Shown: piece after piece, positions 2,502 to 63,738 of the stretch
How positions within the stretch are numbered: the stretch's first letter is position 1
Layout of the letters: the number at the start of each line of letters is the position of its first letter
Assembly: GCA_020057885.1 (NCBI GenBank)
Contig: JAGVEX010000019.1
Coordinates: forward strand, 84,045 to 148,044
Source: a bacterium
Lineage (GTDB): Bacteria > Patescibacteriota > Patescibacteriia > Veblenbacterales > UBA10138
Length of the DNA: 64,000 nucleotides
Reading direction: 5' to 3'
Program-made: the position numbers and the translations under genes
The notes under the pieces: generated by a model
The model's input: the letters and a program-made list of their open reading frames with translations, nothing else
Database searches by the model: none
Told to the model about the DNA's origin: nothing

Positions 2502-2888
2502 TTAATTGGGTATCTTATTATGAATCGCCTGCTCCAATACAGCCTGCAAATCATCTATTAGTCCTTTTACCTTAGTACAATTTTTTTGGGCCTGCTTAAC
2601 GCCATAATCTTCATGGGAAAGAAAACAAAAAGCCTCCTCTAATAAAACATTTATCTCATTAACTTGATCTGGTGCAAATAAATCTAATTTACGGATAATT
2701 GATAAAGAATTTTCCGGTAACGATCGGCAATAATTATCTATCTCTGCTTGGTGGAGGAGATAAAATTCTTCTAATTTAAATTTAAACTTTTGCCTGAGAT
2801 CAGTGATTTCTTTTTCTACTTCTACATTTTGGTTATATATATTTTCTTTTAAATTAGTCTCTCCTTCAATCATATGCTTTTTTATCAT
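2502..2888 (-). CDS. Hypothetical cytoplasmic protein (128 aa), probably translationally coupled to the upstream membrane-protein gene through a 23-nt overlap.
   Basis: Complete ORF whose start overlaps the stop of ORF 2866..4260. No family recognised. Confidence 0.35.
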   Translation of the reverse strand: MIKKHMIEGETNLKENIYNQNVEVEKEITDLRQKFKFKLEEFYLLHQAEIDNYCRSLPENSLSIIRKLDLFAPDQVNEINVLLEEAFCFLSHEDYGVKQAQKNCTKVKGLIDDLQAVLEQAIHNKIPN

Positions 2889-4260
2889 TTAAAAATAAAA
2901 TCAACCACAGCAACATAAACATAGATGCTATGGTCCACCAATAGTGATCAAAAAGTGAAGTAATAGTAATCGGAATAATAAATATCAAATTACGAATTAT
3001 ATATGTTTTTAGTTTAAGCCACAAAAGCCAAATAAAAAATATTAGGCCTATAATACCAAATTCCGTTAATATGAGAAGAAAAATATTATGAACCGGTTGA
3101 TAACGATAAGCTCTATACCCAGGCTCAAAGCTAATTAAAGCAACCGTGTAATTGCCCATACCAACACCGTGCCACCAAGATTCTCTAAGTAAGCTCCGAC
3201 TTTCACCAATGCTCCCCACACGCTCATCAATGGATTGCTGTTCTAATTTTGAACCACCCATAAATCTGCCTACGGTTGGTTGCCAATATAAGACACCTAA
3301 AATAATAAAAACCAAGGCAGTAATTACCATCACACTCAAACTGTCATTGCGAGGAGCGAAGCAACGAAGCAATCTATTCGGATTGCCACGCTCCTCGACA
3401 AACTCGGGGCTCGCAATGACGTCGTGTTTATCTTTCCACCACCATAATCCTAAGGTAATAAATAAAGCCAGCCAAGCACCACGAGAAAAAGTAAAAAACA
3501 ACCCCGCAAGTTGAACTACATAAATTACTAACAACCATTTTGCATTTTGATTTTTTATTTTTACATTTTCTAAATATAGCCACACCGTAACTAAACAAGT
3601 TATAACTAGCAATCCCCCCAACACATTAGGATGCACCTGCCCAGCATAAGCCCTGAGCCACCTACCAGCTGATGTTAATACTACAGACGTGCCGGGTTGT
3701 GTTAAGGGGTGAATTGCCACTCCCAACCACTTATTGGCAAAAGTTGATTGTGTTAAAAATTGACTAATGCCCCACAAAGCCTGAATTGTGCCAGCAAAGG
3801 CTAAACTTAAAAATATTAAATTTAATTTTGGCTTAATAGTTTTTATTAAAAGCCATAGTATACCACCTTCCAACAATCTCGCACTCCAAACCATTGCCAA
3901 CAATTTATCTGTTGACCAAAAAATTGAAACAAGGGTATAAAGTAAAAGTAAAAGATAAATCACGCGAAAATCCAAATTCCAAAATCCAAATGTCAAAAAA
4001 TTTAAACTTTCAGATTTTGAGTTTGGTTTGGTATTTGAGCTTTGGATTTTGAAATTTTTAGCTTCCTGCCACATCAACGGCCAACTTATTACTAATAAAA
4101 CTATTAATAATATGTCCCAGCCGTATAATGAAATTCTTCCATATTCCCAAACCTCTCCATTAACTGGGATATCTCTAATAATCCACCTTGTTTGCCAAGG
4201 GAGGATAAATATTAATAAATAAAACAAATATTCTTTTATCTTAAATCTGGATAACCACAT
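2866..4260 (-). CDS. O-antigen ligase (Wzy_C/WaaL)-like polytopic membrane protein
   Basis: More than 10 predicted transmembrane segments. 'FTFSRGAWLALFITLGL' matches the conserved SRGA region of O-antigen ligase domains, with a large loop after it. Confidence 0.5.
   Translation of the reverse strand: MWLSRFKIKEYLFYLLIFILPWQTRWIIRDIPVNGEVWEYGRISLYGWDILLIVLLVISWPLMWQEAKNFKIQSSNTKPNSKSESLNFLTFGFWNLDFRVIYLLLLLYTLVSIFWSTDKLLAMVWSARLLEGGILWLLIKTIKPKLNLIFLSLAFAGTIQALWGISQFLTQSTFANKWLGVAIHPLTQPGTSVVLTSAGRWLRAYAGQVHPNVLGGLLVITCLVTVWLYLENVKIKNQNAKWLLVIYVVQLAGLFFTFSRGAWLALFITLGLWWWKDKHDVIASPEFVEERGNPNRLLRCFAPRNDSLSVMVITALVFIILGVLYWQPTVGRFMGGSKLEQQSIDERVGSIGESRSLLRESWWHGVGMGNYTVALISFEPGYRAYRYQPVHNIFLLILTEFGIIGLIFFIWLLWLKLKTYIIRNLIFIIPITITSLFDHYWWTIASMFMLLWLILFLNDKKAYD
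3343..3420. repeat. GC-rich nested palindromic element (78 bp) inserted in-frame inside the ligase-like ORF
   Basis: Perfect 11-bp terminal inverted repeats 'gtcattgcgag' and 'ctcgcaatgac'. An inner inverted pair 'gaggagcg' and 'cgctcctc'. The element looks much more GC-rich than the flanking coding sequence by eye. It encodes the hydrophilic insert 'HDVIASPEFVEERGNPNRLLRCFAPRNDSLSV'. Confidence 0.5.
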
Positions 4261-17325: not shown

Positions 17326-17336
17326 AATCTCCCACC

Positions 17337-17372
17337 CTGTGATTTATGTCCGGCCGGACCTTTTTCACAGGA
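17337..17372. repeat. GC-core palindrome, family member P1 ('cctgtga..gtccggccggac..tcacagg')
   Basis: Perfect 12-bp core 'gtccggccggac' with 7-bp outer arms. It shares the 'atttatgtcc-GC-ggac' motif with P7 at 63703. Confidence 0.5.
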
Positions 17373-17541
17373 TGGTGTTTTGTAGGTTAGGTATTACTTA
17401 ATAAGCAGTAAAACCCTGTGGAACATTAAGCTTAGACTAATAAATAATGCCTTAACTTAGCCAAAACATATTATTCATTGTTCCACAAGTATGAAGAAGA
17501 TGAGATACATCTCCGACACTTTTAAAATATAAGGCATACTG

Positions 17542-40453: not shown

Positions 40454-40511
40454 TACTTACAATACACGCGCAAAAATCCAAAACCTAAATCACTTTAAAT
40501 TATCAACATTA

Positions 40512-40537
40512 CACATTGTGACGGCCGTCAAAAAGTG
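40512..40537. repeat. GC-core palindrome P2 ('cacattgtgacggccgtcaaaaagtg'), the left border of PaaX-like cassette 1
   Basis: Perfect 12-bp core 'tgacggccgtca'. The arms match apart from two mismatches. It sits within a left flank that is about 85% identical to 63515-63593. Confidence 0.55.
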
Positions 40538-40559
40538 TTATATTGATTAAAGGAATATA

Positions 40560-41108: not shown

Positions 41109-41204
41109 ATCACGACGGTCGTTATTAAATTTTAAGTAAATTAAAACAACTTACTTAATATTAAGTAAGTTGTTAATAAATTTATAACTTTTTTATCTAT
41201 CTAA

Positions 41205-41230
41205 CACTTTTGGTCGGTCGACCAAAAGTG
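41205..41230. repeat. GC-core palindrome P3 ('cacttttg-gtcg-gtcg-accaaaagtg'), the right border of cassette 1
   Basis: 9-bp arms 'cacttttgg' / 'ccaaaagtg'. The centre is the palindrome 'ggtcgacc' carrying a 4-bp 'gtcg' tandem duplication. Confidence 0.55.
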
Positions 41231-41289
41231 TAAGGTTTAAAAAATAAGGGTTAATAATAGTTTAAATTAAATAAATTGTTTAGACTAAA

Positions 41290-53291: not shown

Positions 53292-53325
53292 TGCCAAAAA
53301 GTGTCCGGCCGGACACTTTTTGGCA
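53292..53325. repeat. GC-core palindrome P4 (34-bp perfect: 'tgccaaaaagtgtccggccggacactttttggca'), the left border of cassette 2
   Basis: Perfect palindrome with an A5 - GC hairpin - T5 layout. It is part of a roughly 45-bp direct repeat shared with 53973-54016. Confidence 0.6.
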
Positions 53326-53939: not shown

Positions 53940-53978
53940 GGTCAATAAAATATCTACAACATACCTAAAATTATCAAT

Positions 53979-54014
53979 ATGCCAAAAAGTGTCCGGCCGG
54001 ACACTTTTTGGCAT
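53979..54014. repeat. GC-core palindrome P5 (36-bp perfect: 'atgccaaaaagtgtccggccggacactttttggcat'), the right border of cassette 2
   Basis: Perfect palindrome, a direct repeat of P4. Confidence 0.6.
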
Positions 54015-54093
54015 ATGATGATATTTACAGTATTTAATAATATTAATGACATTAATAATATTTAAACTAATTAATTATTTTCTCTCATCATCC

Positions 54094-54170: not shown

Positions 54171-57100
54171 TTATGGCTTAACTTTAATTATGCCATTAAA
54201 TTTAAGCCAACCACTGGCGGAAAGATTACTGCTGTTGCTGATACAGTCAGGAGTGCCCCACTTAGCACCGGTGGAACCCAAGCACCAATCCCAATTATCT
54301 TTTACCAAAACTGCTGGAGTAAATTCACAAGCGCCCTGATTAGCTCCTAAAGAATTTGGATTATAACTCAAACTTGAACTACTGCAAGTATAAACTTTAG
54401 TAAAACCAAAGTAACCAAGGCTGCCACTAGCTGTATCTTGCACACAAGCTTGTGAGGAATCACCAAAGTTATAGCGCGGATTAGCTACATCACCTTCTTT
54501 GCAAGCATTCAGTATACTACTGCACTGCGTGTCATTCGCGCAAAGTTTACCTAGATCGGCTAAGTTAGTGCACATTTTAGCTTTAACTGTTGCTGGTTCA
54601 CACATGTGCTTATGGTTCTTATATTTACCACTAGCGCCAGCTAAAACTGAACCATCACCCCAATTAACCCAAACATCGGTTAAGGGCATTTGCTCGCCAT
54701 TGGGATTATAAGCGTAGAATAAAGTGCTAATAGGAGCAGGCGAAGCCAGCACCACCTCGCCGTTATTAAAACTGCCGCCTGGAGTTTGCAAAGTAAAACC
54801 AGTATTACCCTCAATAGTGGATGTGCCGTTTAATTCAAACACTACTTGTTTAATTGAAGGGGCTAAGGGCACATTATAATAACATGGCGGATTGGTAGAG
54901 GGAGAACATAAAGAACCGGGCAGTCCGCTACTTGAATCAATATCTGGGAGCGCAGGGGAGGTAAAACGGGAAGTTGAAGTATTCCATGTTAAAACATCAA
55001 AAATTTTAGCAAATAATTGCTGCACTCTTACTATACCACTTGTACCCCAACCCAACCCTTGATAACCAGTGCAAGTGTCTCCACTATTGCAATCGTTATC
55101 AACCTGACACAGTTGAGTAGTTCTTACACCGCTTACACCGCCGACTTCGCAAACTTTGTTAAAATACCCCATACAAACAGGGGCGGACGAATCACCGCAA
55201 TCAGCCGACTTATTACATTGTTTCCCTATGGTCAATATACCGTTACTTTGGCCAGAAAGACAAATTCCATACCCTGTGCCACAACCATTTTCGCAGAAAA
55301 AGGATTGTGGGAAAGTTGAAAAATCACCACTGCTACTTGTAATATTAACACCGGGCTTATCGCTCATTATTAACATACTAGTGCCAGAGTCTACTGCTTG
55401 GCTAAGCTTGCCATAAGGACTGGGGTTACGGCTTTGGGTAAAGCCCAGCTCTGTTTTTGGCGCTACTTGATAAACAGTATTTCTGAGCACACGATCAGTC
55501 CAAACTTTATTGCTAGCGCTACTTGCCACTTGAACAGCTTCAGTGCAATATTCTCTTAAATAAGTTTCTCTACCATTTATCACAAAACTACCTGTACCAG
55601 GACTACCGTCAGAATATATCACATTATAACCTAAAAATTTATCATTACTATCAAACACAGCTTTAATAACAGCGTAATCAAAATTTGTGAGAGAATGTAT
55701 ATTCATAGCGACATCAAGATTATGTTGTGTACCATCTATCAAAGTATTAGGCGGTAGAATATTATTAGACGTTAATTTAGCACAACGGTCAGCAAGCTCA
55801 GTAAAATTAAAATCACATTGTTGGTTCATATCACATTTTACACCAGCACACCAATCATTACCTTTATTTAAATAGAATCTCCCATACTCCTCCTGTGAAT
55901 TAGTTGTAAGGGTGAAATTAGGGTTAATACCCCAGCCGCCAAAAAGTTGAAACGGCAGATAAATTGTTTCTATATCAGCTTTATAAAAATTTTCTTCACC
56001 AACCTCGGCTACACGTGAAAAAATAACTATATCCTCACCAGCGGCTTCTATTCTTTTATCTTTGTTATTACAAAAATAATTGGAACCGAGCTCGGAATTT
56101 TGTAGTGTAAAATCATTTGTGCAATATCTTACATCTTGAAACTCATAACAGCGCCAGTCGGCAGTATAATCAATATAAGCTACATTACAATTAGCGAGAG
56201 CTCCATTCGCGGCGTGATACGTATAATTCTCCCCCCGTGAGCCAACTTTGTTACCAATAGATTCACTGCAATAAAAAATCTCGCCGCCAGTATAGCCAGC
56301 CTCCGGAGCATAATTATAAACAGAAATTTCACCAGCCGCTGTATCGAGCGGCAGCCAAGTAAGACAGGCTTTGGCAGTACCGCTGTTAATAGAACGAGAG
56401 GTATCCTGCTCCAAACAATAACCTTTCATACCAATAAAACTGTTGTCAGTTTTAATTTTTGATTTAACCTCAACCGGTTGGTTAGTATTTGCATCAATAT
56501 CATTCTGAGTATAGAACATGGACTGCAGTTTGGTGGTATCAAAACCGTAATACAGTGTTTGCCCGCCGCTATAAATGGCCTTGCTGTAAGAGCACTCACA
56601 ATCTTCTCCGTTTTGGCAATTGTTCGCGTCTTTATAATCAGCGTCTTTATTTTTAGCTACGGCAATATAATTAGCAGTGCCCACAGGCAAACAGTTGCTA
56701 CCCTCGCAAGCTGGGGTCCAGTTTTTTACTACAACTGTGGGGAAAGGTGAATCCTTTTCTGGATAAGCACGACAAGCTTTAATAACAGTATTATTGTCAC
56801 TTAACAATTTTTTATCATCAAGTGGGCCTAAGCCAGTGGCACCCTTATCCTCATATTGACAAGTAGTAACAGTGTTACAAGGAGAAGCGCTACTGCCAAT
56901 TGGTAAATTACACTCATCGCCCGTGCCGCCACACCTTTTAACTTTATTATTTATATAAGTCAAACGGATATTGGTGGTAAGTGGATCAGTAGAATAATTT
57001 TTTTGCGTTAAAAGCTCAATAGAATATTTATCAGGAATAGAATAACCAGAATAATCCATACCGCTCCAATCGGTTGCGCGCGCTTGATAATTAGTTAAAG

Positions 57101-60100
57101 TTAAAGGCTGAGGGTCTTCGGGGGGGGTAAGCCAGTGACTGCATTTACTGACACCGCTACCACTGGTACCCCAAGCGTCACACTTACCTAAAGCATAACA
57201 AATTGAACTAGCCTTACTGCTGACAAAACGCGTGCTTTCGCTTTGGCAGGCCAACCATTCACCACACACACGATCACGACTAACTTTTAGAATAATATTC
57301 GCGTTGTTAGGCGGAGCGCTAATCGGCGCTATTAATTTATCGTTTTGTCCGGTGCTGGAAGCATAAGTGGCGGCGGCATTGCTAGTAAGCTGAGATGAGG
57401 ACAAATCAGTAAACAATAAGCAGCCCTCTTTTTTACTAACACCAGTACATTTTTTATCAAGCTTGCTATTATCCAAATAATAATAAGTTTGCTTGGTAAG
57501 TTCTGGGTCGTGGAAAGCTTTACAGCTTACTTGGTCAGCAGGACACAGATAAGCCAGTGGCACCTGCGACTCGCTCAACGAAAATTGATCTACATAAATA
57601 ACTTGATTGGTGCTGCAAGTTTCGGGTGTACAAATCATATTACCACTGCCCACAGGCTGTTCCACGCCGCCATTGGTAATAAGGCCTACGGAAAGCTGAG
57701 TAACGCCTGGATCAATTTTAATAAGCGCTTGTTTGTAAACCCATTTACCTTTTTCAGTACTAGTTATGATGTTATCGTAACCGGGTTCATAATCATAATG
57801 CGGCACAGCTTGTTGCGTTAATTGCCAACTGGTAAAATTACGATTTTGTGGTATGTCGGGAACATAAATATGAGCTGAAACTGTAAAATAACGCGGCGTA
57901 CTACTTGATTCAATTTTTACATCATTGCTCCAAATTCCAGCGTAAATTTTAGCGCCACTTTCTATTTCCAGCACATTTGAGCCCCAATATTGTCCAGCGA
58001 CTGATTCGTGAGCTGTGAAAATAGCTGACTCGGTTTCTTCACCACTAGGGCCATTAATATTCCAACCCGAAAAAGCGTCTGACAAATTAACAGTTACATT
58101 GTCATAGTAAGCCGTACCAGCAACGGCTGAACCGCCAGCTGAAGTATTTAATTGTAGGAGGCAAGTGCGCGTGGTTGGTTTAAAGCTTAGTTGCAATTTT
58201 TCCCACACACCCGCTTCTTCGGTGTAATCGGAAACATTAACTCCGCAACCTGAAATATTAAGCGTGCGCCTAATGCCTGTATCGGCTTTTACCCAAACGC
58301 GAGCAGTATAAGCTTGGCCAATTATTACATCAAAATTTTGTCGGACCGCATCATCACCGCCAGCAAACTCATCCTTAATGCTTTGTACTCCATTGTGGCT
58401 ATCGCGTATTAAATCTGATGAGAGGGATAAATTCCAATCAGTAGGAGATATGCTATACCAGTTAGCTGGCCAGACGGTAATATTTTCAAAATCACCATCA
58501 GCTATTAAATTATCGCCGACATCATTAACTTTTTCAAAACTTGGATTATCTAACAAATCACAAAGTTCGGTAGTGCCTTTTTTATACCAATCATAACCAC
58601 GCAAACTATCTAATTGTTTGTACTCGCACACTCCATTGCCCGGATCCTTAAAAAAATGGGTAACGGAATTGCTGTCGGTAAACTGTTCGCACTTATCTTG
58701 CGCGCGACTGCACAAAAGCGAGCCAGCTCCTGTGTCACCCAAAGTATCCGGATTTAACTTAACAAATTTATCACTCCAATCTTGCACGTTGCCCGAAGAA
58801 TCAAGTTTGGGCTCACCTACGCGCTGACAAGCCTTGGCCGAAGCAGCGCAGGATTTTTTGGCATCATAAACTCTGTATATTACTTGATCAGCTGGAATAT
58901 TTAAAGCCGGCGGATCGGGCAAAGTAACAACAGTAGATTTAGGTGAAGAAGAATTTTGCGTATTAACCAAAGCTTCACAGCCCACGGCTTCAACTTTGCA
59001 AATTTTACTAAAATCAGTAAGAGTAGTTTTTGTGCCTGCGCGATTGGTATAAGCCGCACAACGTAAGTCACTAGCTGTACAAGTAGAAGGCGTAACCCAA
59101 GTATCTTTGCGGACAAAGAAAGTATCACCTATTTCACGCAAGGATACATTATCAATATAAAATGACGCGGGACTGGATATTGTTAAGGCTAAACTAGCTG
59201 GAACATCGGCCGTAAGCTGAACTGGCCCTAAAGTATAAACTTGCCACTCGCCACTTATTGGCAAGCTCCCTAAGCTAGCAAGGGGGTTGGTATTTATACT
59301 GGCGCTAATAGTGCTAGTGGCCGCCGTACTCTTGATCCAAAAATTAAGGAAATAAAGTTTACTCTTGGCAACCTTGCCACTAATATCTTTAGTAATGGTG
59401 CTGTTGCCAGCGCCTGAATACAAGGAATGACCAAAAGCGGAAGTTGATTCATTGGAATTACTGCCAGGAGTAAAGCCGCCGGTGGGAGTAGTGTCGGTGC
59501 TGAAACCAGCTTCGTTGTCACCAAAAGTAGTTATAGGAAACACTAAGCGTATATTATCGGCAGTAGGACCACGGTATTCTCGGCAACCAACATATTGAGC
59601 GCTACAAATTACACCCTCTTGTGGAATGGCATTATAAAAACAAGCAGGTGGAACAGCGGAGGCATCCCAAGTACCACCACTAGCCTCACAATCATTTTGA
59701 TTTATAGAAGTGGCGCGATAATTAGCGCAAGAGGCGGAAGCTGTAATTGTCTTAGACCAATAACGATAGTGAATTCCACCTGTTGTATCATAAAATTGTT
59801 TGCAATCTGGGTTCGAAGGAAAATCTGTTGGGGGAGTAATACCATTACCACATTCCGATCCTATGTTAGAATTATCTGTAGTAGTAGGCGCCGAATTGGG
59901 CATAGTAGGATCCTCCGCTTTTAACTGCCAAGTTTTAAGCTGATAACCAGATAAATTAGACCCTACCCAAGTGTAGTAAATATGATCTTCACCGGTATCT
60001 AATTTGATACACTGCCTAAGTTCGGCATAATACTCTTTGGCCTCATTCTGAACATTGGTAAATTCCTCACAACCAACCGCTTGAGCAACACAAGATTTAG

Positions 60101-62477
60101 CAGTGGTAGGAATAAAATTCATATCATCATTTGTAGGTAAACATTCAAGCCCGCCGCAGGTAGCTGAAGTTTGACAAATACTGCCGTTATTTATACCACC
60201 ACAACGCAAATTCTGGTTAAAGAAACTGGAATTTTGCTGATAATTGTTATAACCAATACATTCATTGGGGCAAGTGTTGCCTTTAATGGCTGGAATATTG
60301 GGTGAACCGTCGGCTGGCGTATAAAGTTCACAACCAACATCATCAACCCTACAAGAATTTAAATAATTTTTGCAAAGCGCTGAATCGTTAGTAATGTCCG
60401 CGTCATAACAATTTAAGAAACTAGGTGCCTCGCGCAAAGTAACAGCTTGTACTTTGGCATATTGTTCATATGAATCAGTGCTAGTGGCAGGTGTAACTCG
60501 AGCCACTACATCATTAGCCAAACATGCCACATCACTTGTACCGCAGGTAGTACCAACCAAGGTCGACATATTAAAATTACTCAAGCGCAAAAATTGCGTG
60601 CATCCTTCAGCGCTGGATTCGCAGGCGTATGTGCTAAAATCTTTCAAATAAATTTTATCGTCAGCATTATAACGGTTAACTGGTATACTGGCCGCAGAAT
60701 TATAAGATTTGGAATACCAACGGCAACCAATTGAATCACTGGTACAAATACTATTTTCTCCTACCAATGAATTTTGTAGATAAAAATTCGTATTGCCGCT
60801 ACGACTGGTAAATGCCTGACAAGTAGCATAAGGGGAATAACCTGAGCCCGCTGGAAATTCACAACTATCGCCACTGAAACGCCAAACATTTTTTTCTTTG
60901 GTACAATAACCCCAGGCCTGACAATTACCATTATCATCTTCAGCTACACAATTTTGCGTATCAACGCAAATTTCTTGCCTAGTGCCACCTTCAGATTGCA
61001 ACTGTTGGCCACTGGCCTGAATGCGACATTGTGACTGAGGAGCTTTTAATACCCAATTAGGATCAATTAGATGATAAAAAGGGCTACCTAAAACATTAAA
61101 TCCATCCATTACTTGTCGCAAAGTATAACTGGTGCCGGCAAATTGTTTAGCGGCCATTTCCCAGCCAATTGGAATGATTCGCGCCCGGCGTAATTTTTTT
61201 AAATCTGATTCATACCATTTACTAGGCTGACTTTCTTGCTCAGGATGATCTTTAGCAAACACCCAACTGCCGTTAATAAGTTTTTTATTTTGTACGGCGT
61301 CGGCCACAGTAAGCGGCTGACCCGACTCAGCTGAACGCAAAGCCTGCTCAAAACCATTATCAATAGTACAGTTATTAAGCTCAGCAAATTTTCGTGGGCT
61401 AGGACAATTTGAAAACTCGCTGATAACATCAATTTTATCCACACTCTTAAGAGTGGGAGTGGAAATTGAACTATTTATTTGCATGGCGTAATCCACGCCA
61501 CTAATACTGGTATTGTTTGCGATTGGTGAAAATGTGCCGCTGGGATTTTTAACATCTCCCTCTAAAAGCCGTTTCATTAAACGAGAAGCTAGGGTATTGG
61601 TAAAAACACCTAAGGCGTCGGCCACAACATCCCCGGTATAAGTATTAAAATCTTTTAGGGCCTCACCAACAGGCGTATCAACTAATAATTTTTCAACTTT
61701 AGCAGCAGGAGTTTTTATAAAACCGGTAATTGGTTCAGTAACAGCCCTTATGCCCCCATTCATGGTGTCGAGTGCTTTTTGAACGGCTTTTTGATCCTCG
61801 GCTCGTGTTAATAAATCTTGACGCAAACTCAAACTTACGCCCAATTCATTTTGCCGTGGATCTATAGCATAACCAAAAGCCTGTTGCGCCATGCGGGGAT
61901 TTTTTAAATACTGATCCCAAGCCGCGCCAATTTGTTTTAAATTACAACGTGGTCTAGTAGGTCGTATTTCTTCAAATAAAGCCGTGGTAATAATAAGGTT
62001 AGCAGTAAAACCTGGTGGCCTACATACATCCAAACTTAAATAACCGTTCTCGGTAGCTATGGTATCTATAAAGTCACCAGCCGCATCATTCCAAGCGTCA
62101 GTAGCTGATTTACCTAAATTTTTCCAAGTAAATAAAGGTGTTTGTCCTTTGCCACCAGAACCTATCATTACCGCGGCATCATAAGCAATGCGATTGGCAA
62201 ACATTTTAGCTGCATTTTTAAAAGCCACGGCCGCGCCATGTTCCCATACCCATTCTAAAGATTTTGTAAGCCAACCTTTAGCCGCCTCTGCCTGTTGTGC
62301 GACAATTTGTAGCTGGATTGCTGCTAAAACCCCTGGATCAGTTACTGCCCACTGTGCTTGAGCGGATTTAGGAGTAAAAAAAGAAACACCAACTGTAGTA
62401 AAAATAACACTCAAAAATATTCCAGTAGTTAAAACGCGGAATAAGCGTGGGTGTTTATTTTTTAACCAAGAAGACAT
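54171..62477 (-). CDS. Giant (2768 aa) cysteine-rich secreted or surface protein with an N-terminal signal anchor
   Basis: One uninterrupted ORF. The N-terminus has a hydrophobic signal ('LTTGIFLSVIFTTVGVSFF'). Several hundred Cys, Gly, Ser, Thr and Asn residues suggest disulfide-rich beta-structure. A heptad array lies just upstream. Confidence 0.7.
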   Translation of the reverse strand: MSSWLKNKHPRLFRVLTTGIFLSVIFTTVGVSFFTPKSAQAQWAVTDPGVLAAIQLQIVAQQAEAAKGWLTKSLEWVWEHGAAVAFKNAAKMFANRIAYDAAVMIGSGGKGQTPLFTWKNLGKSATDAWNDAAGDFIDTIATENGYLSLDVCRPPGFTANLIITTALFEEIRPTRPRCNLKQIGAAWDQYLKNPRMAQQAFGYAIDPRQNELGVSLSLRQDLLTRAEDQKAVQKALDTMNGGIRAVTEPITGFIKTPAAKVEKLLVDTPVGEALKDFNTYTGDVVADALGVFTNTLASRLMKRLLEGDVKNPSGTFSPIANNTSISGVDYAMQINSSISTPTLKSVDKIDVISEFSNCPSPRKFAELNNCTIDNGFEQALRSAESGQPLTVADAVQNKKLINGSWVFAKDHPEQESQPSKWYESDLKKLRRARIIPIGWEMAAKQFAGTSYTLRQVMDGFNVLGSPFYHLIDPNWVLKAPQSQCRIQASGQQLQSEGGTRQEICVDTQNCVAEDDNGNCQAWGYCTKEKNVWRFSGDSCEFPAGSGYSPYATCQAFTSRSGNTNFYLQNSLVGENSICTSDSIGCRWYSKSYNSAASIPVNRYNADDKIYLKDFSTYACESSAEGCTQFLRLSNFNMSTLVGTTCGTSDVACLANDVVARVTPATSTDSYEQYAKVQAVTLREAPSFLNCYDADITNDSALCKNYLNSCRVDDVGCELYTPADGSPNIPAIKGNTCPNECIGYNNYQQNSSFFNQNLRCGGINNGSICQTSATCGGLECLPTNDDMNFIPTTAKSCVAQAVGCEEFTNVQNEAKEYYAELRQCIKLDTGEDHIYYTWVGSNLSGYQLKTWQLKAEDPTMPNSAPTTTDNSNIGSECGNGITPPTDFPSNPDCKQFYDTTGGIHYRYWSKTITASASCANYRATSINQNDCEASGGTWDASAVPPACFYNAIPQEGVICSAQYVGCREYRGPTADNIRLVFPITTFGDNEAGFSTDTTPTGGFTPGSNSNESTSAFGHSLYSGAGNSTITKDISGKVAKSKLYFLNFWIKSTAATSTISASINTNPLASLGSLPISGEWQVYTLGPVQLTADVPASLALTISSPASFYIDNVSLREIGDTFFVRKDTWVTPSTCTASDLRCAAYTNRAGTKTTLTDFSKICKVEAVGCEALVNTQNSSSPKSTVVTLPDPPALNIPADQVIYRVYDAKKSCAASAKACQRVGEPKLDSSGNVQDWSDKFVKLNPDTLGDTGAGSLLCSRAQDKCEQFTDSNSVTHFFKDPGNGVCEYKQLDSLRGYDWYKKGTTELCDLLDNPSFEKVNDVGDNLIADGDFENITVWPANWYSISPTDWNLSLSSDLIRDSHNGVQSIKDEFAGGDDAVRQNFDVIIGQAYTARVWVKADTGIRRTLNISGCGVNVSDYTEEAGVWEKLQLSFKPTTRTCLLQLNTSAGGSAVAGTAYYDNVTVNLSDAFSGWNINGPSGEETESAIFTAHESVAGQYWGSNVLEIESGAKIYAGIWSNDVKIESSSTPRYFTVSAHIYVPDIPQNRNFTSWQLTQQAVPHYDYEPGYDNIITSTEKGKWVYKQALIKIDPGVTQLSVGLITNGGVEQPVGSGNMICTPETCSTNQVIYVDQFSLSESQVPLAYLCPADQVSCKAFHDPELTKQTYYYLDNSKLDKKCTGVSKKEGCLLFTDLSSSQLTSNAAATYASSTGQNDKLIAPISAPPNNANIILKVSRDRVCGEWLACQSESTRFVSSKASSICYALGKCDAWGTSGSGVSKCSHWLTPPEDPQPLTLTNYQARATDWSGMDYSGYSIPDKYSIELLTQKNYSTDPLTTNIRLTYINNKVKRCGGTGDECNLPIGSSASPCNTVTTCQYEDKGATGLGPLDDKKLLSDNNTVIKACRAYPEKDSPFPTVVVKNWTPACEGSNCLPVGTANYIAVAKNKDADYKDANNCQNGEDCECSYSKAIYSGGQTLYYGFDTTKLQSMFYTQNDIDANTNQPVEVKSKIKTDNSFIGMKGYCLEQDTSRSINSGTAKACLTWLPLDTAAGEISVYNYAPEAGYTGGEIFYCSESIGNKVGSRGENYTYHAANGALANCNVAYIDYTADWRCYEFQDVRYCTNDFTLQNSELGSNYFCNNKDKRIEAAGEDIVIFSRVAEVGEENFYKADIETIYLPFQLFGGWGINPNFTLTTNSQEEYGRFYLNKGNDWCAGVKCDMNQQCDFNFTELADRCAKLTSNNILPPNTLIDGTQHNLDVAMNIHSLTNFDYAVIKAVFDSNDKFLGYNVIYSDGSPGTGSFVINGRETYLREYCTEAVQVASSASNKVWTDRVLRNTVYQVAPKTELGFTQSRNPSPYGKLSQAVDSGTSMLIMSDKPGVNITSSSGDFSTFPQSFFCENGCGTGYGICLSGQSNGILTIGKQCNKSADCGDSSAPVCMGYFNKVCEVGGVSGVRTTQLCQVDNDCNSGDTCTGYQGLGWGTSGIVRVQQLFAKIFDVLTWNTSTSRFTSPALPDIDSSSGLPGSLCSPSTNPPCYYNVPLAPSIKQVVFELNGTSTIEGNTGFTLQTPGGSFNNGEVVLASPAPISTLFYAYNPNGEQMPLTDVWVNWGDGSVLAGASGKYKNHKHMCEPATVKAKMCTNLADLGKLCANDTQCSSILNACKEGDVANPRYNFGDSSQACVQDTASGSLGYFGFTKVYTCSSSSLSYNPNSLGANQGACEFTPAVLVKDNWDWCLGSTGAKWGTPDCISNSSNLSASGWLKFNGIIKVKP

Positions 62478-62520: not shown

Positions 62521-62631
62521 TAAATGAATTAATTAATTTAAGTTTTAAATTATTATTTTGAATGCTGAACTGTGAAAGTTAAATTATTTGGATTTTGTTT
62601 GACGTTTGAGCTTTGAATTTTGATATTTATA

Positions 62632-63381: not shown

Positions 63382-63567
63382 ATTTAAAACAATAATTTAA
63401 CTGAAAATTGATAATTTATCTAAATCAATTATATCACAGAACGGGGTAATTGTCAAAGTTAAAAGCTTAAATTCTAATCTGAAGCGCAACGCTTTGAAAG
63501 GGATAGACTCGTTTACAATATATGCGCAAAAATCCAAAACCTGAATCACCTTAAATCACCAATCTTA

Positions 63568-63593
63568 CACTTTGTGACGGCCGCCAAAAAGTG
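63568..63593. repeat. GC-core palindrome P6 ('cactttgtgacggccgccaaaaagtg'). It is a single copy in a locus homologous to both flanks of cassette 1, a putative empty site.
   Basis: 63515-63593 matches 40464-40537. 63594-63660 matches 41231-41300. No ORF lies between them. Confidence 0.5.
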
Positions 63594-63702
63594 TAAGATT
63601 TAAATTAAAATAAATTGTTTAAACTAAAATCATAATAGCTATTACGGCGCCAACTACTAATGAAGACTTTGTTGGCTTATCAACTCAGGATGAATTGCCT
63701 TA

Positions 63703-63738
63703 GTACGGATTTATGTCCAGCTGGACATAAATCCGTAC
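63703..63738. repeat. GC-core palindrome P7 (36-bp perfect: 'gtacggatttatgtccagctggacataaatccgtac')
   Basis: Perfect palindrome with a 'gtccagctggac' core. Confidence 0.5.

What the first reader, a model, noticed from the sequence alone, without database searches (positions are those of the whole stretch)
3343..3420. GC-rich 78-bp nested palindrome inserted in-frame in a membrane-protein gene (RPE-like element)
A perfect 11-bp terminal inverted repeat plus an inner 8-bp inverted repeat give a strong cruciform or hairpin potential. The element looks strongly GC-enriched relative to the host gene by eye. It is translated as a 26-residue hydrophilic insert in a predicted loop of the O-antigen-ligase-like protein without breaking the frame. 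The antisense ORF 3152..3514 ('SLRGAKQRSNLFGLPRSS') is an artefact of the same palindrome.

This resembles Rickettsia-type palindromic elements that colonise coding sequences.
Basis: seen in the sequence. Interest (0 to 1): 0.5.

Follow-up and report, generated by a model that had tools for sequence, protein, structure and literature searches.

The report
REP-like palindrome inside a membrane-protein gene
The 78-bp GC-rich palindrome is one copy of a very widespread family of small REP/RPE-type palindromic DNA repeats, sitting in frame in a loop of an O-antigen-ligase-like gene of a Patescibacteria genome. This kind of insertion is already known; the notable points are how far the family reaches and that nobody knows how it moves.

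Summary
Window 3343-3420 has a perfect 11-bp terminal inverted repeat (GTCATTGCGAG/CTCGCAATGAC) and nested inner pairing. Its GC is 0.55, against 0.34 for the rest of the gene. It is read in frame as residues 281-306 of a Wzy_C protein (2866-4260, minus strand), in a low-confidence loop between two helices.

It is not a private oddity. The same termini, with the same inner GCAATC...GATTGC core, occur in at least 120 genome loci from many phyla and at least 120 viral contigs. About one match is expected by chance.

The anatomy matches the CGTC/TGTC-tagged REP dimers of Di Nocera et al. 2013:
- C/T before GTC
- an AT-started stem
- a CCA tail
- inverted dimers
- no target-site duplication and no adjacent transposase
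- mostly downstream of genes

That superfamily includes Rickettsia RPE-4 and RPE-6. However, the unit has a 5-bp stem and a long structured interior, which fits none of the four described families.

Most orthologues lack the insert. Three carry a family member at exactly the same codon, in the opposite arm order and with different nested hairpins. Their 22 terminal bases are identical although 4-fold sites are saturated.

The window holds only this one copy. Verdict: an RPE-like reading is supported; this is a new variant of a known kind, and the way it is mobilised is unknown.

The parts
3343..3420 (.). Whole palindromic element: a 78-bp dimer of two inverted REP-like units. The flanking bases T3342 and G3421 give the tags TGTC (plus strand) and CGTC (minus strand).
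   Evidence: Covariance model R1, built from 100 copies including this one, scores it 48.7 bits, E 1.2e-10. The next best hit in the window has E 0.5.
3343..3353 (+). Left terminal inverted repeat GTCATTGCGAG
   Evidence: Identical in at least 240 loci elsewhere and in the orthologous copies L121, L122 and L124.
3410..3420 (+). Right terminal inverted repeat CTCGCAATGAC. It ends in the ATGAC motif reported for RPE-4/-6/-7.
   Evidence: PMC3767692.
3354..3368 (+). Interior of the left unit, GAGCGAAGCAACGAA ('long-type' arm). It contains GCGAAGC at 3356-3362.
   Evidence: The same long-type interior, GAGCGAAGCGACGAA, is the second commonest arm type in the family.
3369..3386 (+). Conserved inner core: GCAATC, a 6-nt spacer TATTCG, then GATTGC. 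This is the inner stem and apex of the dimer.
   Evidence: An exact GCAATC...GATTGC is present in 106 of 130 copies although the search pattern did not demand it.
3391..3409 (-). Nested hairpin module. It reads CCCCGAGTTTGTCGAGGAG on the minus (mRNA) strand and sits in the interior of the right unit.
   Evidence: it folds as its own hairpin. The motif CCCCGAGYTTGTCGAGGRG was found in at least 120 metagenome stretches in unrelated contexts. The same nesting is seen in L340 and L050.
2866..4260 (-). Host gene: O-antigen-ligase-like membrane protein (Wzy_C), 464 aa. The element encodes residues 281-306.
   Evidence: In the AlphaFold model, residues 284-305 are coil between helices 260-283 and 306-324, with pLDDT about 47-52.
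3152..3514 (+). Antisense ORF of 120 aa that spans the palindrome. Judged spurious.
   Evidence: No Pfam match. It is entirely antisense to the conserved Wzy_C gene.

Best explanation
What it is. The segment is a copy of a cosmopolitan, non-autonomous palindromic repeat of the REP/REPIN/RPE kind. It consists of two inverted REP-like units, each of the form (C/T)GTC-ATTGC-[structured interior]-GCAAT-CC(A), joined tail to tail so that the whole can form one long hairpin or cruciform. One unit carries the common GCGAAGC-type interior. The other carries a second widespread hairpin module (CCCCGAG..TCGAGG) nested at its apex.

How it got there and why it persists. It entered (inferred) the DNA that encodes a short loop between two transmembrane helices of a Wzy_C protein. 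It survives because it is 26 codons long, is read in one of the two stop-free frames of its termini (VIA...RND), and adds only a disordered loop.

Shown here: family membership, the in-frame loop position, absence from most orthologues, absence of a target-site duplication, absence of a neighbouring transposase, and DNA-level conservation of the termini at an orthologous site.

Inferred: that it is selfish DNA; that it spreads (or is refreshed by gene conversion) through a single-strand hairpin intermediate recognised in trans by an enzyme not yet identified; that it prefers hairpin apices or palindrome centres as targets; and that phages carry it between lineages. No benefit to the host gene is implied.
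For: Family and chance:
It also gives at least 120 viral contigs. About 1 match is expected by chance.
- The hits share the unrequested GCAATC/GATTGC core (106/130).
- The base before the element is C in 67% and T in 27% of copies, and the tail is mostly CCA. These are the CGTC-REP hallmarks of PMC3733652.

Arm pairing: the arms covary, with 93 cells changed on both sides against 28.9 in shuffles (0/500). Spacer ends pair in 93/106, 91/103 and 72/102 copies, against about 54, 46 and 37 in shuffles.

Mobility signature:
- No target-site duplication: direct flank repeats are at chance, while inverted-complement flanks are in excess (k=6: 5 against 0.3).
- The element lies between convergent genes 23 times and between divergent genes 3 times.
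- No RAYT or IS200 homologue was found in 2.1 Mb of flanking DNA.
- No recurrent transposase cluster lies next to copies.

Dispersal: Bradyrhizobium species carry copies with the same spacer at loci with different flanks, L014 has two similar copies 2.2 kb apart, and L121 has five copies in 21.5 kb.

In-frame copies in real genes: UvrA, GMP synthase, a PBP transglycosylase, a phage portal protein and prepilin peptidase.

This locus:
- The insert is absent from most orthologues.
- It is present at the identical codon junction in L121, L122 and L124.
- Its 22 terminal nt are identical in all four, although 4-fold sites show 0.31 identity.
- It lies in a loop of low pLDDT.
Against: - Only one copy lies in the 64-kb window, so activity in this genome is not shown.
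- No empty and filled alleles from close relatives were available. The nearest homologue is 67% identical, so the insertion event and its exact target cannot be reconstructed.
- Covariation between the arms could come from inverted duplication rather than from selection for pairing.
- The loci found by the DNA pattern are ascertained for perfect termini.
- The perfect conservation of the termini at an ancient site could equally mean a function under selection (rival 1).
- The unit does not meet the stem and loop sizes of the four described CGTC families.
Confidence: 0.75

Rival explanations
1. A cis-acting structured RNA or DNA element kept by selection for the host's or phage's benefit. It could be an mRNA 3'-end stabiliser or attenuator, a translational pause site that helps membrane insertion of Wzy_C, or a protein-binding site. 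On this view it is not merely tolerated selfish DNA.
For: - The termini are identical in four orthologues whose 4-fold sites are saturated.
- Eleven of 13 homologous phage loci (protein identity median 45%) carry the element 7-30 nt after the stop of phrog_13692. That gene sits between the head protease and the head-tail adaptor, the slot of the capsid gene. All of these copies are in the same orientation.
- Family copies favour gene 3' ends (convergent 23, divergent 3).
- The variable interiors keep a hairpin shape with UUCG- or GNRA-like loops.
- PMC3733652 argues that many REPs act as RNA.
Against: - At the Wzy_C site the arm order is opposite in the window compared with L121, L122 and L124.
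- Most orthologues do without it.
- There is no overall orientation bias relative to the upstream gene (42 against 38).
- No Rfam family matches.
- The phage set is ascertained by the pattern, and its shared orientation can be common descent.
Confidence: 0.15
2. [quoted passage not shown]
For: Perfect 11-bp terminal inverted repeats, small size and many dispersed copies.
Against: - No target-site duplication in 261 distinct copies.
- No transposase family recurs next to copies, and no long element bounded by the same termini was seen.
- The unit carries the tag, stem and tail anatomy of REPs.
- A text search of the papers library for the terminal sequence found no relevant paper.
Confidence: 0.04
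3. Ordinary coding sequence that happens to be palindromic: a chance feature or a lineage-specific loop.
For: An 11-bp inverted repeat by itself is common in 64 kb. Other parts of the gene also reach GC above 0.5.
Against: - Fold z-score of -5.
- The same 22 terminal bases and inner core occur in more than 240 unrelated loci, mostly non-coding.
- The insert is absent from most orthologues.
- Third codon positions inside the termini are frozen while 4-fold sites elsewhere are saturated.
Confidence: 0.01

Closest known systems
CGTC-tagged REP repeats and their dimers (Di Nocera, De Gregorio & Rocco 2013, BMC Genomics 14:522; PMC3733652)
   Same: - Terminal CGTC/TGTC tag, a stem that starts with AT, and a CCA-like tail.
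- Mostly inverted dimers whose spacer ends are complementary.
- Mostly intergenic and downstream of genes.
- Intragenic dimers encode 20-30 residues. Repair genes such as uvrA are among the hosts.
- No target duplication and no dedicated transposase found.
   Different: - The described families have 8-9-bp stems and 4-5-nt loops. Here the unit has a 5-bp stem (ATTGC/GCAAT) around a 12-25-nt structured interior that can hold a whole extra hairpin.
- The peptides listed for CGTC-1 to -4 (VIPAKAGI, DSRLRGND, VIPGLDPGIH, VIPWLDHGI) do not include VIA(R/S)...RND.
- The paper reports 5 phyla. Patescibacteria, Chloroflexota, Planctomycetota, Cyanobacteria and phages are added here.
- The paper's figures could not be read, so prior listing of this sequence type (for example among the Bradyrhizobium variants) cannot be excluded.
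[quoted passage not shown] 2000/2002; Matsutani et al. 2013, PMC3767692)
   Same: - Palindromic repeats inserted in frame in genes, at exposed or loop positions.
- ATGAC termini.
- Orthologues carry different variants at the same site.
- A Rickettsia O-antigen-ligase gene is also a host.
- The present family occurs in Rickettsiaceae MAGs (L081, L107).
   Different: - Classical RPEs are 100-150 bp and are described as Rickettsia- or Wolbachia-specific. This family is 62-94 bp and cosmopolitan.
- Identity with a named RPE consensus could not be tested.
REPIN-RAYT systems (Bertels & Rainey 2011)
   Same: - Two inverted REPs that form one hairpin and act as the replicating unit.
- No target duplication.
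- Long persistence at orthologous sites.
   Different: - REPINs carry GTAG tags and have a single-copy RAYT gene flanked by REPs.
- Here the tag is CGTC/TGTC, and no Y1 transposase was found near any of 245 loci.
- The family's sequence is shared across phyla, whereas REPIN populations are reported as mostly vertically inherited within individual lineages (preprint abstracts listed).
Neisseria dRS3 repeats (= CGTC-1 according to PMC3733652)
   Same: Same superfamily by tag and layout.
   Different: - Different stem sequence (ATTCCC...GGGAAT).
- dRS3 repeats are known, from my own knowledge, as integration targets of filamentous prophages. No such use was seen or tested here.

Membership tests
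CGTC-tagged REP superfamily (PMC3733652) | Unpaired terminal CGTC tag (TGTC or CCTC also accepted) | tested here: met
   In the window the tag is TGTC on the plus side (T3342) and CGTC on the minus side (G3421). In the family the base before the element is C in 67% and T in 27% of copies. In the alignment the flank pair is C-G in 66, U-A in 16 and U-G in 9 copies.
CGTC-tagged REP superfamily (PMC3733652) | Stem begins with complementary A-T, T-A residues | tested here: met
   Each unit is GTC-ATTGC...GCAAT.
CGTC-tagged REP superfamily (PMC3733652) | Short unpaired tail, consensus CCA | tested here: inconclusive
   At family level GCAAT is followed by CCA in most copies (consensus). The window copy has CTA on one unit and CCG on the other.
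CGTC-tagged REP superfamily (PMC3733652) | Stem of 8-9 bp and loop of 4-5 nt (families CGTC-1 to -4) | tested here: not met
   The stem ATTGC/GCAAT is 5 bp. The interior is 12-25 nt, with its own mini-hairpin or a nested module.
CGTC-tagged REP superfamily (PMC3733652) | Predominantly inverted dimers with complementary spacer ends; located between convergent or co-directional genes; no transposase attached | tested here: met
   (convergent 23, divergent 3).
Rickettsia palindromic elements (RPE) | Palindromic repeat inserted in frame in ORFs at exposed or loop positions | tested here: met
   Other hosts are shown.
Rickettsia palindromic elements (RPE) | ATGAC termini shared by RPE-4/-6/-7 (PMC3767692) | tested here: met
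   The element ends in ...GCAATGAC and begins with GTCATTGC....
Rickettsia palindromic elements (RPE) | Sequence match to a named RPE consensus (RPE-1 to -10) | not testable with these tools
The only indirect evidence is copies in the Rickettsiaceae MAGs L081 and L107.
Rickettsia palindromic elements (RPE) | Length of 100-150 bp, restricted to Rickettsia/Wolbachia | tested here: not met
   The element is 78 bp, and the family is spread over more than 10 phyla and phages.
REPIN-RAYT | GTAG tag and a cognate RAYT (Y1 HUH transposase) gene flanked by the repeats | tested here: not met
   The tag is (C/T)GTC. tblastn with RAYT and IS200 TnpA against 2.1 Mb of loci and the window gave no hit.
MITE (DDE transposase-driven) | Target-site duplication flanking the terminal inverted repeats | tested here: not met
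   Direct flank repeats are at chance for k = 1-8 in 261 copies.
Rfam structured RNA families | Match to a curated covariance model | tested here: not met
   Nothing matched at gathering score in the window or in 16 loci. Only chance-level hits appeared at E up to 10.

The most novel reading that the evidence does not exclude
The ATTGCGAG element and the CCCCGAG..TCGAGG module nested in it would belong to a modular system of hairpin elements shared across bacterial phyla and their phages.
- The elements would insert at the apices of existing hairpins or the centres of palindromes.
- They would be copied or continually repaired by one as-yet-unidentified, very widely distributed enzyme, either a host housekeeping or structure-specific nuclease/recombinase or a phage-borne one.

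This would explain the termini being identical across phyla and at anciently occupied sites. In small-genome Patescibacteria the elements would be a regular source of new protein loops.
Probability: 0.2. Interest if true: 0.7.

Novelty: new variant of a known kind. Interest (0 to 1): 0.4.

Why it matters
Small palindromic repeats that survive inside genes show how selfish DNA can add new loops to proteins. This case extends the Rickettsia-type phenomenon to Patescibacteria: one Wzy_C orthologue, P0004, carries three such inserts.

The family is also a sharp example of an open problem. CGTC-type repeats have no known transposase. Yet here the same 22 terminal bases are kept from Patescibacteria to Bradyrhizobium and in phages, and they stay frozen at a site where neutral positions are saturated. 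That makes the search for the enzyme or function that maintains them concrete, for example by phyletic profiling with the model built here.

In practice, recognising these repeats explains many spurious 'hypothetical proteins', such as the antisense ORF 3152-3514, and many odd insertions in annotated proteins.

Tried and rejected
1. Link to small GIY-YIG (UPF0213) genes, a lead from memory. A motif scan found none within the 120 8-kb genome loci. One unrelated 86-aa GIY-YIG gene lies 7 kb away in L122. Dropped.
2. Known RNA family. Rfam gave nothing at gathering score in the window and in 16 loci, and only chance-level hits in an E-value scan of the region.
3. Literature by sequence or peptide (GTCATTGCGAG, LRFARND, VIARSEATKQS, the CCCCGAG module). 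Nothing relevant was found.
4. Other copies in the window. An exact or 1-mismatch search for the terminal repeat, a 3-mismatch search for the core, a generic GTCAT-stem scan and a covariance model run without filters all found only this copy.
5. RAYT or IS200 transposase near copies: no tblastn hit.
6. A recurrent neighbouring gene. All-against-all clustering of 4193 ORFs near copies returned phage head-module genes, not a transposase.
7. Target-site duplication: none.
8. Strand or orientation bias relative to the upstream gene: none overall. The uniform orientation in the phage set is probably common descent.
9. Curated phage and plasmid records: only a few arm-length matches.
10. [quoted passage not shown] It looks like a decayed relic, and its upstream flank AAT AAG CGA TCG matches L122's AAT AAG CGA TCC at 11 of 12 bases, but the model does not detect it. 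Left as a suggestion.
11. The idea that intragenic copies are always multiples of 3. This holds for the window copy, its three orthologous counterparts and four other verified genes (78, 84, 84, 75; 78, 87, 87, 84 nt). It fails for two further copies in L121's Wzy_C (86 and 74 nt).
Full report
**1. The observation**

Window 3343-3420 reads GTCATTGCGAG GAGCGAAGCAACGAA GCAATC TATTCG GATTGC CACG CTCCTCGACAAACTCGGGG CTCGCAATGAC.
- The outer 11-mers are perfectly complementary. An inner repeat (15 nt at 87%, with a perfect 9-mer) is also present.
- The segment folds far better than its shuffles, both as single-stranded DNA (-23.6 kcal/mol, z -5.1) and as mRNA-sense RNA (-38.7 kcal/mol, z -4.8).
- Its GC is 0.551, against 0.343 for the rest of the gene. 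That places it in the top 1.7% of 78-nt windows.
- It is 26 codons, read as VIASPEFVEERGNPNRLLRCFAPRND (residues 281-306) of the 464-aa ORF 2866-4260 on the minus strand. That ORF is a Wzy_C / O-antigen-ligase family protein.
- The genome is a member of Patescibacteria, judged from the named homologues.
- An AlphaFold model (mean pLDDT 72) places residues 284-305 in a coil of pLDDT about 47-52, between helices 260-283 and 306-324.
- The plus-strand ORF 3152-3514 has no family match and lies antisense to the conserved gene.

An 11-bp inverted repeat alone would not be unusual in 64 kb.

**2. The element belongs to a very large family**

The window holds no second copy. This was checked by exact and mismatch searches and by a covariance model run without filters. 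In that model search the element scores 48.7 bits (E 1e-10) and the next hit has E 0.5.

Elsewhere the family is abundant.
About one match is expected by chance.
- The hosts include Bradyrhizobium and many other Alphaproteobacteria, among them Rickettsiales and a Tisiphia endosymbiont.
- They also include Gammaproteobacteria (Coxiellaceae, Legionellales), Desulfobacterota, Bacteroidota (Pedobacter, Mucilaginibacter, Flavobacterium), Chloroflexota, Planctomycetota and a cyanobacterium.
- Zixibacteria, Margulisbacteria, a Clostridiaceae MAG and several Patescibacteria are also hosts.

The hits share features the pattern did not ask for.
- An inner GCAATC...GATTGC core is present in 106 of 130 copies.
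- The base before the element is C (67%) or T (27%), mirrored by G/A after it.
- The tail after GCAAT is mostly CCA.
- The consensus is CGTCATTGCGAGCGnAGCGAAGCAATCCAG-(spacer)-CTGGATTGCTTCG(TCGCnnnGCTC)CTCGCAATGACG.
- Between the termini and the core each arm carries a variable interior. This is a short CGnAGCGAA, a longer GAGCGAAGCGACGAA, or a private GC-rich hairpin followed by CGTG.
- The arms covary: 93 cells are changed on both sides, against 29 in shuffles (0/500). The first three spacer positions pair well above shuffled partners.

**3. What kind of element it is**

- Flanks show no direct repeats above chance (k = 1-8, 261 copies). They do show an excess of inverted complementarity, so the palindrome extends outward or sits inside other palindromes.
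- Copies lie between convergent genes (23) far more often than between divergent genes (3). They show no overall orientation bias.
- No Y1 transposase homologue was found in 2.1 Mb around copies.
- Clustering of neighbouring ORFs gave no transposase family.
- No Rfam family matches.

These are the properties that Di Nocera et al. 2013 (PMC3733652) describe for CGTC-tagged REPs:
- a CGTC/TGTC tag, a stem that starts with AT, and a CCA tail;
- mostly inverted dimers whose spacers often have complementary ends;
- a location downstream of genes;
- intragenic dimers that encode 20-30 residues, often in repair genes;
- no dedicated transposase.

That paper equates CGTC-1 with RPE-6 and CGTC-4 with RPE-4 of Rickettsia conorii. 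Matsutani et al. 2013 (PMC3767692) add three points:
- RPE-4/-6/-7 share ATGAC termini.
- Orthologues can hold different RPE groups at the same site.
- A Rickettsia O-antigen-ligase gene is one of the hosts.

The present element has the tags, the AT start and the ATGAC ends. However, its unit has a 5-bp stem with a 12-25-nt structured interior, instead of an 8-9-bp stem with a 4-5-nt loop. The peptides tabulated for CGTC-1 to -4 do not include its VIA(R/S)...RND signature. I therefore file it as a further variant of that superfamily, not as a member of one of its four families.

**4. The locus in evolution**

The neighbourhood UvrC - UvrA - Wzy_C is syntenic in the relatives.
- Most orthologues have a short loop here (KN(R/Q)EQ(K/R)KYL...) and no insert.
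- Three orthologues were fetched by protein similarity, not by the DNA pattern: L121, L122 and L124, at 57-64% amino-acid identity to the window protein. They carry a family member at exactly the same junctions (...C|GTC ATT GCG ... CGC AAT GAC|A...) and in the same frame.
- Relative to the gene, their arm order is the reverse of the window's, and the nested hairpin differs in each lineage.
- Among the four genes, 4-fold sites in invariant codons are only 0.31 identical (n = 54), which is saturation. Yet all 22 terminal bases of the element are identical, third codon positions included.

The termini are therefore under DNA- or RNA-level constraint, or they are renewed by re-insertion or gene conversion.
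- The closest homologue (L123, 67% identity) has a 54-nt AT-rich segment after an upstream flank that matches L122's at 11 of 12 bases. This may be a decayed relic, but the model does not detect it.
- Gain and loss are visible at other loops of the same protein. L121 and L124 carry a copy where L122, L123 and the window have none. L121 has three copies in Wzy_C, one in a prepilin peptidase gene and one intergenic, all within 21.5 kb.

**5. Other contexts**

- In-frame copies occur in UvrA (L041), GMP synthase (L035), a transglycosylase (L050) and a phage portal protein (L211).
- In 11 of 13 homologous phage loci the element lies 7-30 nt after the stop of phrog_13692, in one orientation. This gene sits between the head maturation protease and the head-tail adaptor, which is the slot of the capsid gene. 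Its function is unannotated.
- That position fits a 3' hairpin role, but it may also be common descent, and the set is ascertained by the search pattern.
- The element also lies between terminase and portal genes.

**6. The nested module**

The hairpin in the right-hand unit reads CCCCGAGTTTGTCGAGGAG on the mRNA strand. It is itself a cosmopolitan motif.
- There it usually caps other stems, including terminator-like ones. It also occurs as inverted dimers whose outer flanks read TGTCA / TGACA.
- L340 and L050 show the same nesting as the window.

This finding and the palindromic flanks suggest that hairpin apices are preferred targets. That is an inference.

**7. Mechanism and verdict**

Best explanation (0.75): a non-autonomous REP/RPE-type palindromic repeat, tolerated because it adds 26 in-frame codons to a disordered loop.
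- It is read in one of the two stop-free frames of its termini. The third frame ends in TGA.
- Spread through a single-strand hairpin intermediate, with an unidentified enzyme acting in trans and with phages as carriers, is inferred by analogy with REPIN/IS200-type systems. It is not shown.

Main rival (0.15): a structure kept for an RNA- or DNA-level function. The frozen termini argue for it. The flipped orientation and the many orthologues without the element argue against it.

A DDE-type MITE (0.04) and chance (0.01) are disfavoured.

The phenomenon is known. The unit architecture, the nesting, the reach into Patescibacteria and phages, and the conservation at a saturated orthologous site are the new points.

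Noticed in passing
window 3967-4057: A second, AT-rich palindrome lies in the same Wzy_C gene. Its arms are 3974-3997 and 4034-4057 (24 nt, 88% complementary). It encodes part of the variable loop KNFKIQSSNTKPNSKSESLNFLTFGFWNLDF, the loop where orthologues P0004 and P0009 carry CHCEE...LLRF(T/A)RND palindrome inserts. A related sequence lies in an intergenic spacer at about 62590-62630.
   Followed up: partly
window 53292-53325, 53977-54016, 63561-63600, 40502-40547, 41191-41244, 17332-17375, 63703-63738: A dispersed set of perfect or near-perfect palindromes that share a core like GACACTTTTTGGC / CCGGACAC. They may be terminators or another repeat family of this genome.
   Followed up: no
L245-L364 (metagenome loci); for example L348 9993-10080, L284 1674-1692: CCCCGAGCTTGTCGAGGGG is a cosmopolitan hairpin module found at any GC content. 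It caps terminator-like stems, forms inverted dimers whose outer flanks read TGTCA / TGACA, and occurs in tandem in high-GC contigs. No paper was found for it.
   Followed up: partly
L014 1518-1541; L075 7303-7326: Canonical CGTC-type REP units (CGTCATTCCGGACTTGATCCGGAATCCA and TGTCATTCCCGATCCAGTCGGGAATCCA) occur in other Patescibacteria/Berkelbacteria contigs. Several CGTC families therefore coexist in this group.
   Followed up: no
Alignment A1: P0004, P0006, P0008, P0009, P0022: Wzy_C orthologues carry other palindrome-derived inserts in other loops. Examples are ...AGMT and CHPGRGSG...RGND peptides, typical of other CGTC families. P0004 has three inserts of the present family.
   Followed up: partly
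L041 1761-4490 (minus strand): A gammaproteobacterial UvrA gene carries an in-frame copy (VIASKAKQSHSTGSANNGIATSPLAPRND). This echoes the published remark that intragenic REPs often sit in repair genes. In the window the host gene lies next to uvrA and uvrC.
   Followed up: partly
window 54171-62477 (minus strand): A 2768-aa ORF that is cysteine-rich and has an N-terminal hydrophobic segment. It is probably a giant secreted or surface protein.
   Followed up: no
L121 11669-12718; L122 18322-18582 and 18791-20210: Mobile-DNA genes lie near the orthologous loci: an rve integrase directly after Wzy_C in L121, and a small GIY-YIG gene and a serine recombinase in L122. None of them recurs across loci.
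   Followed up: no
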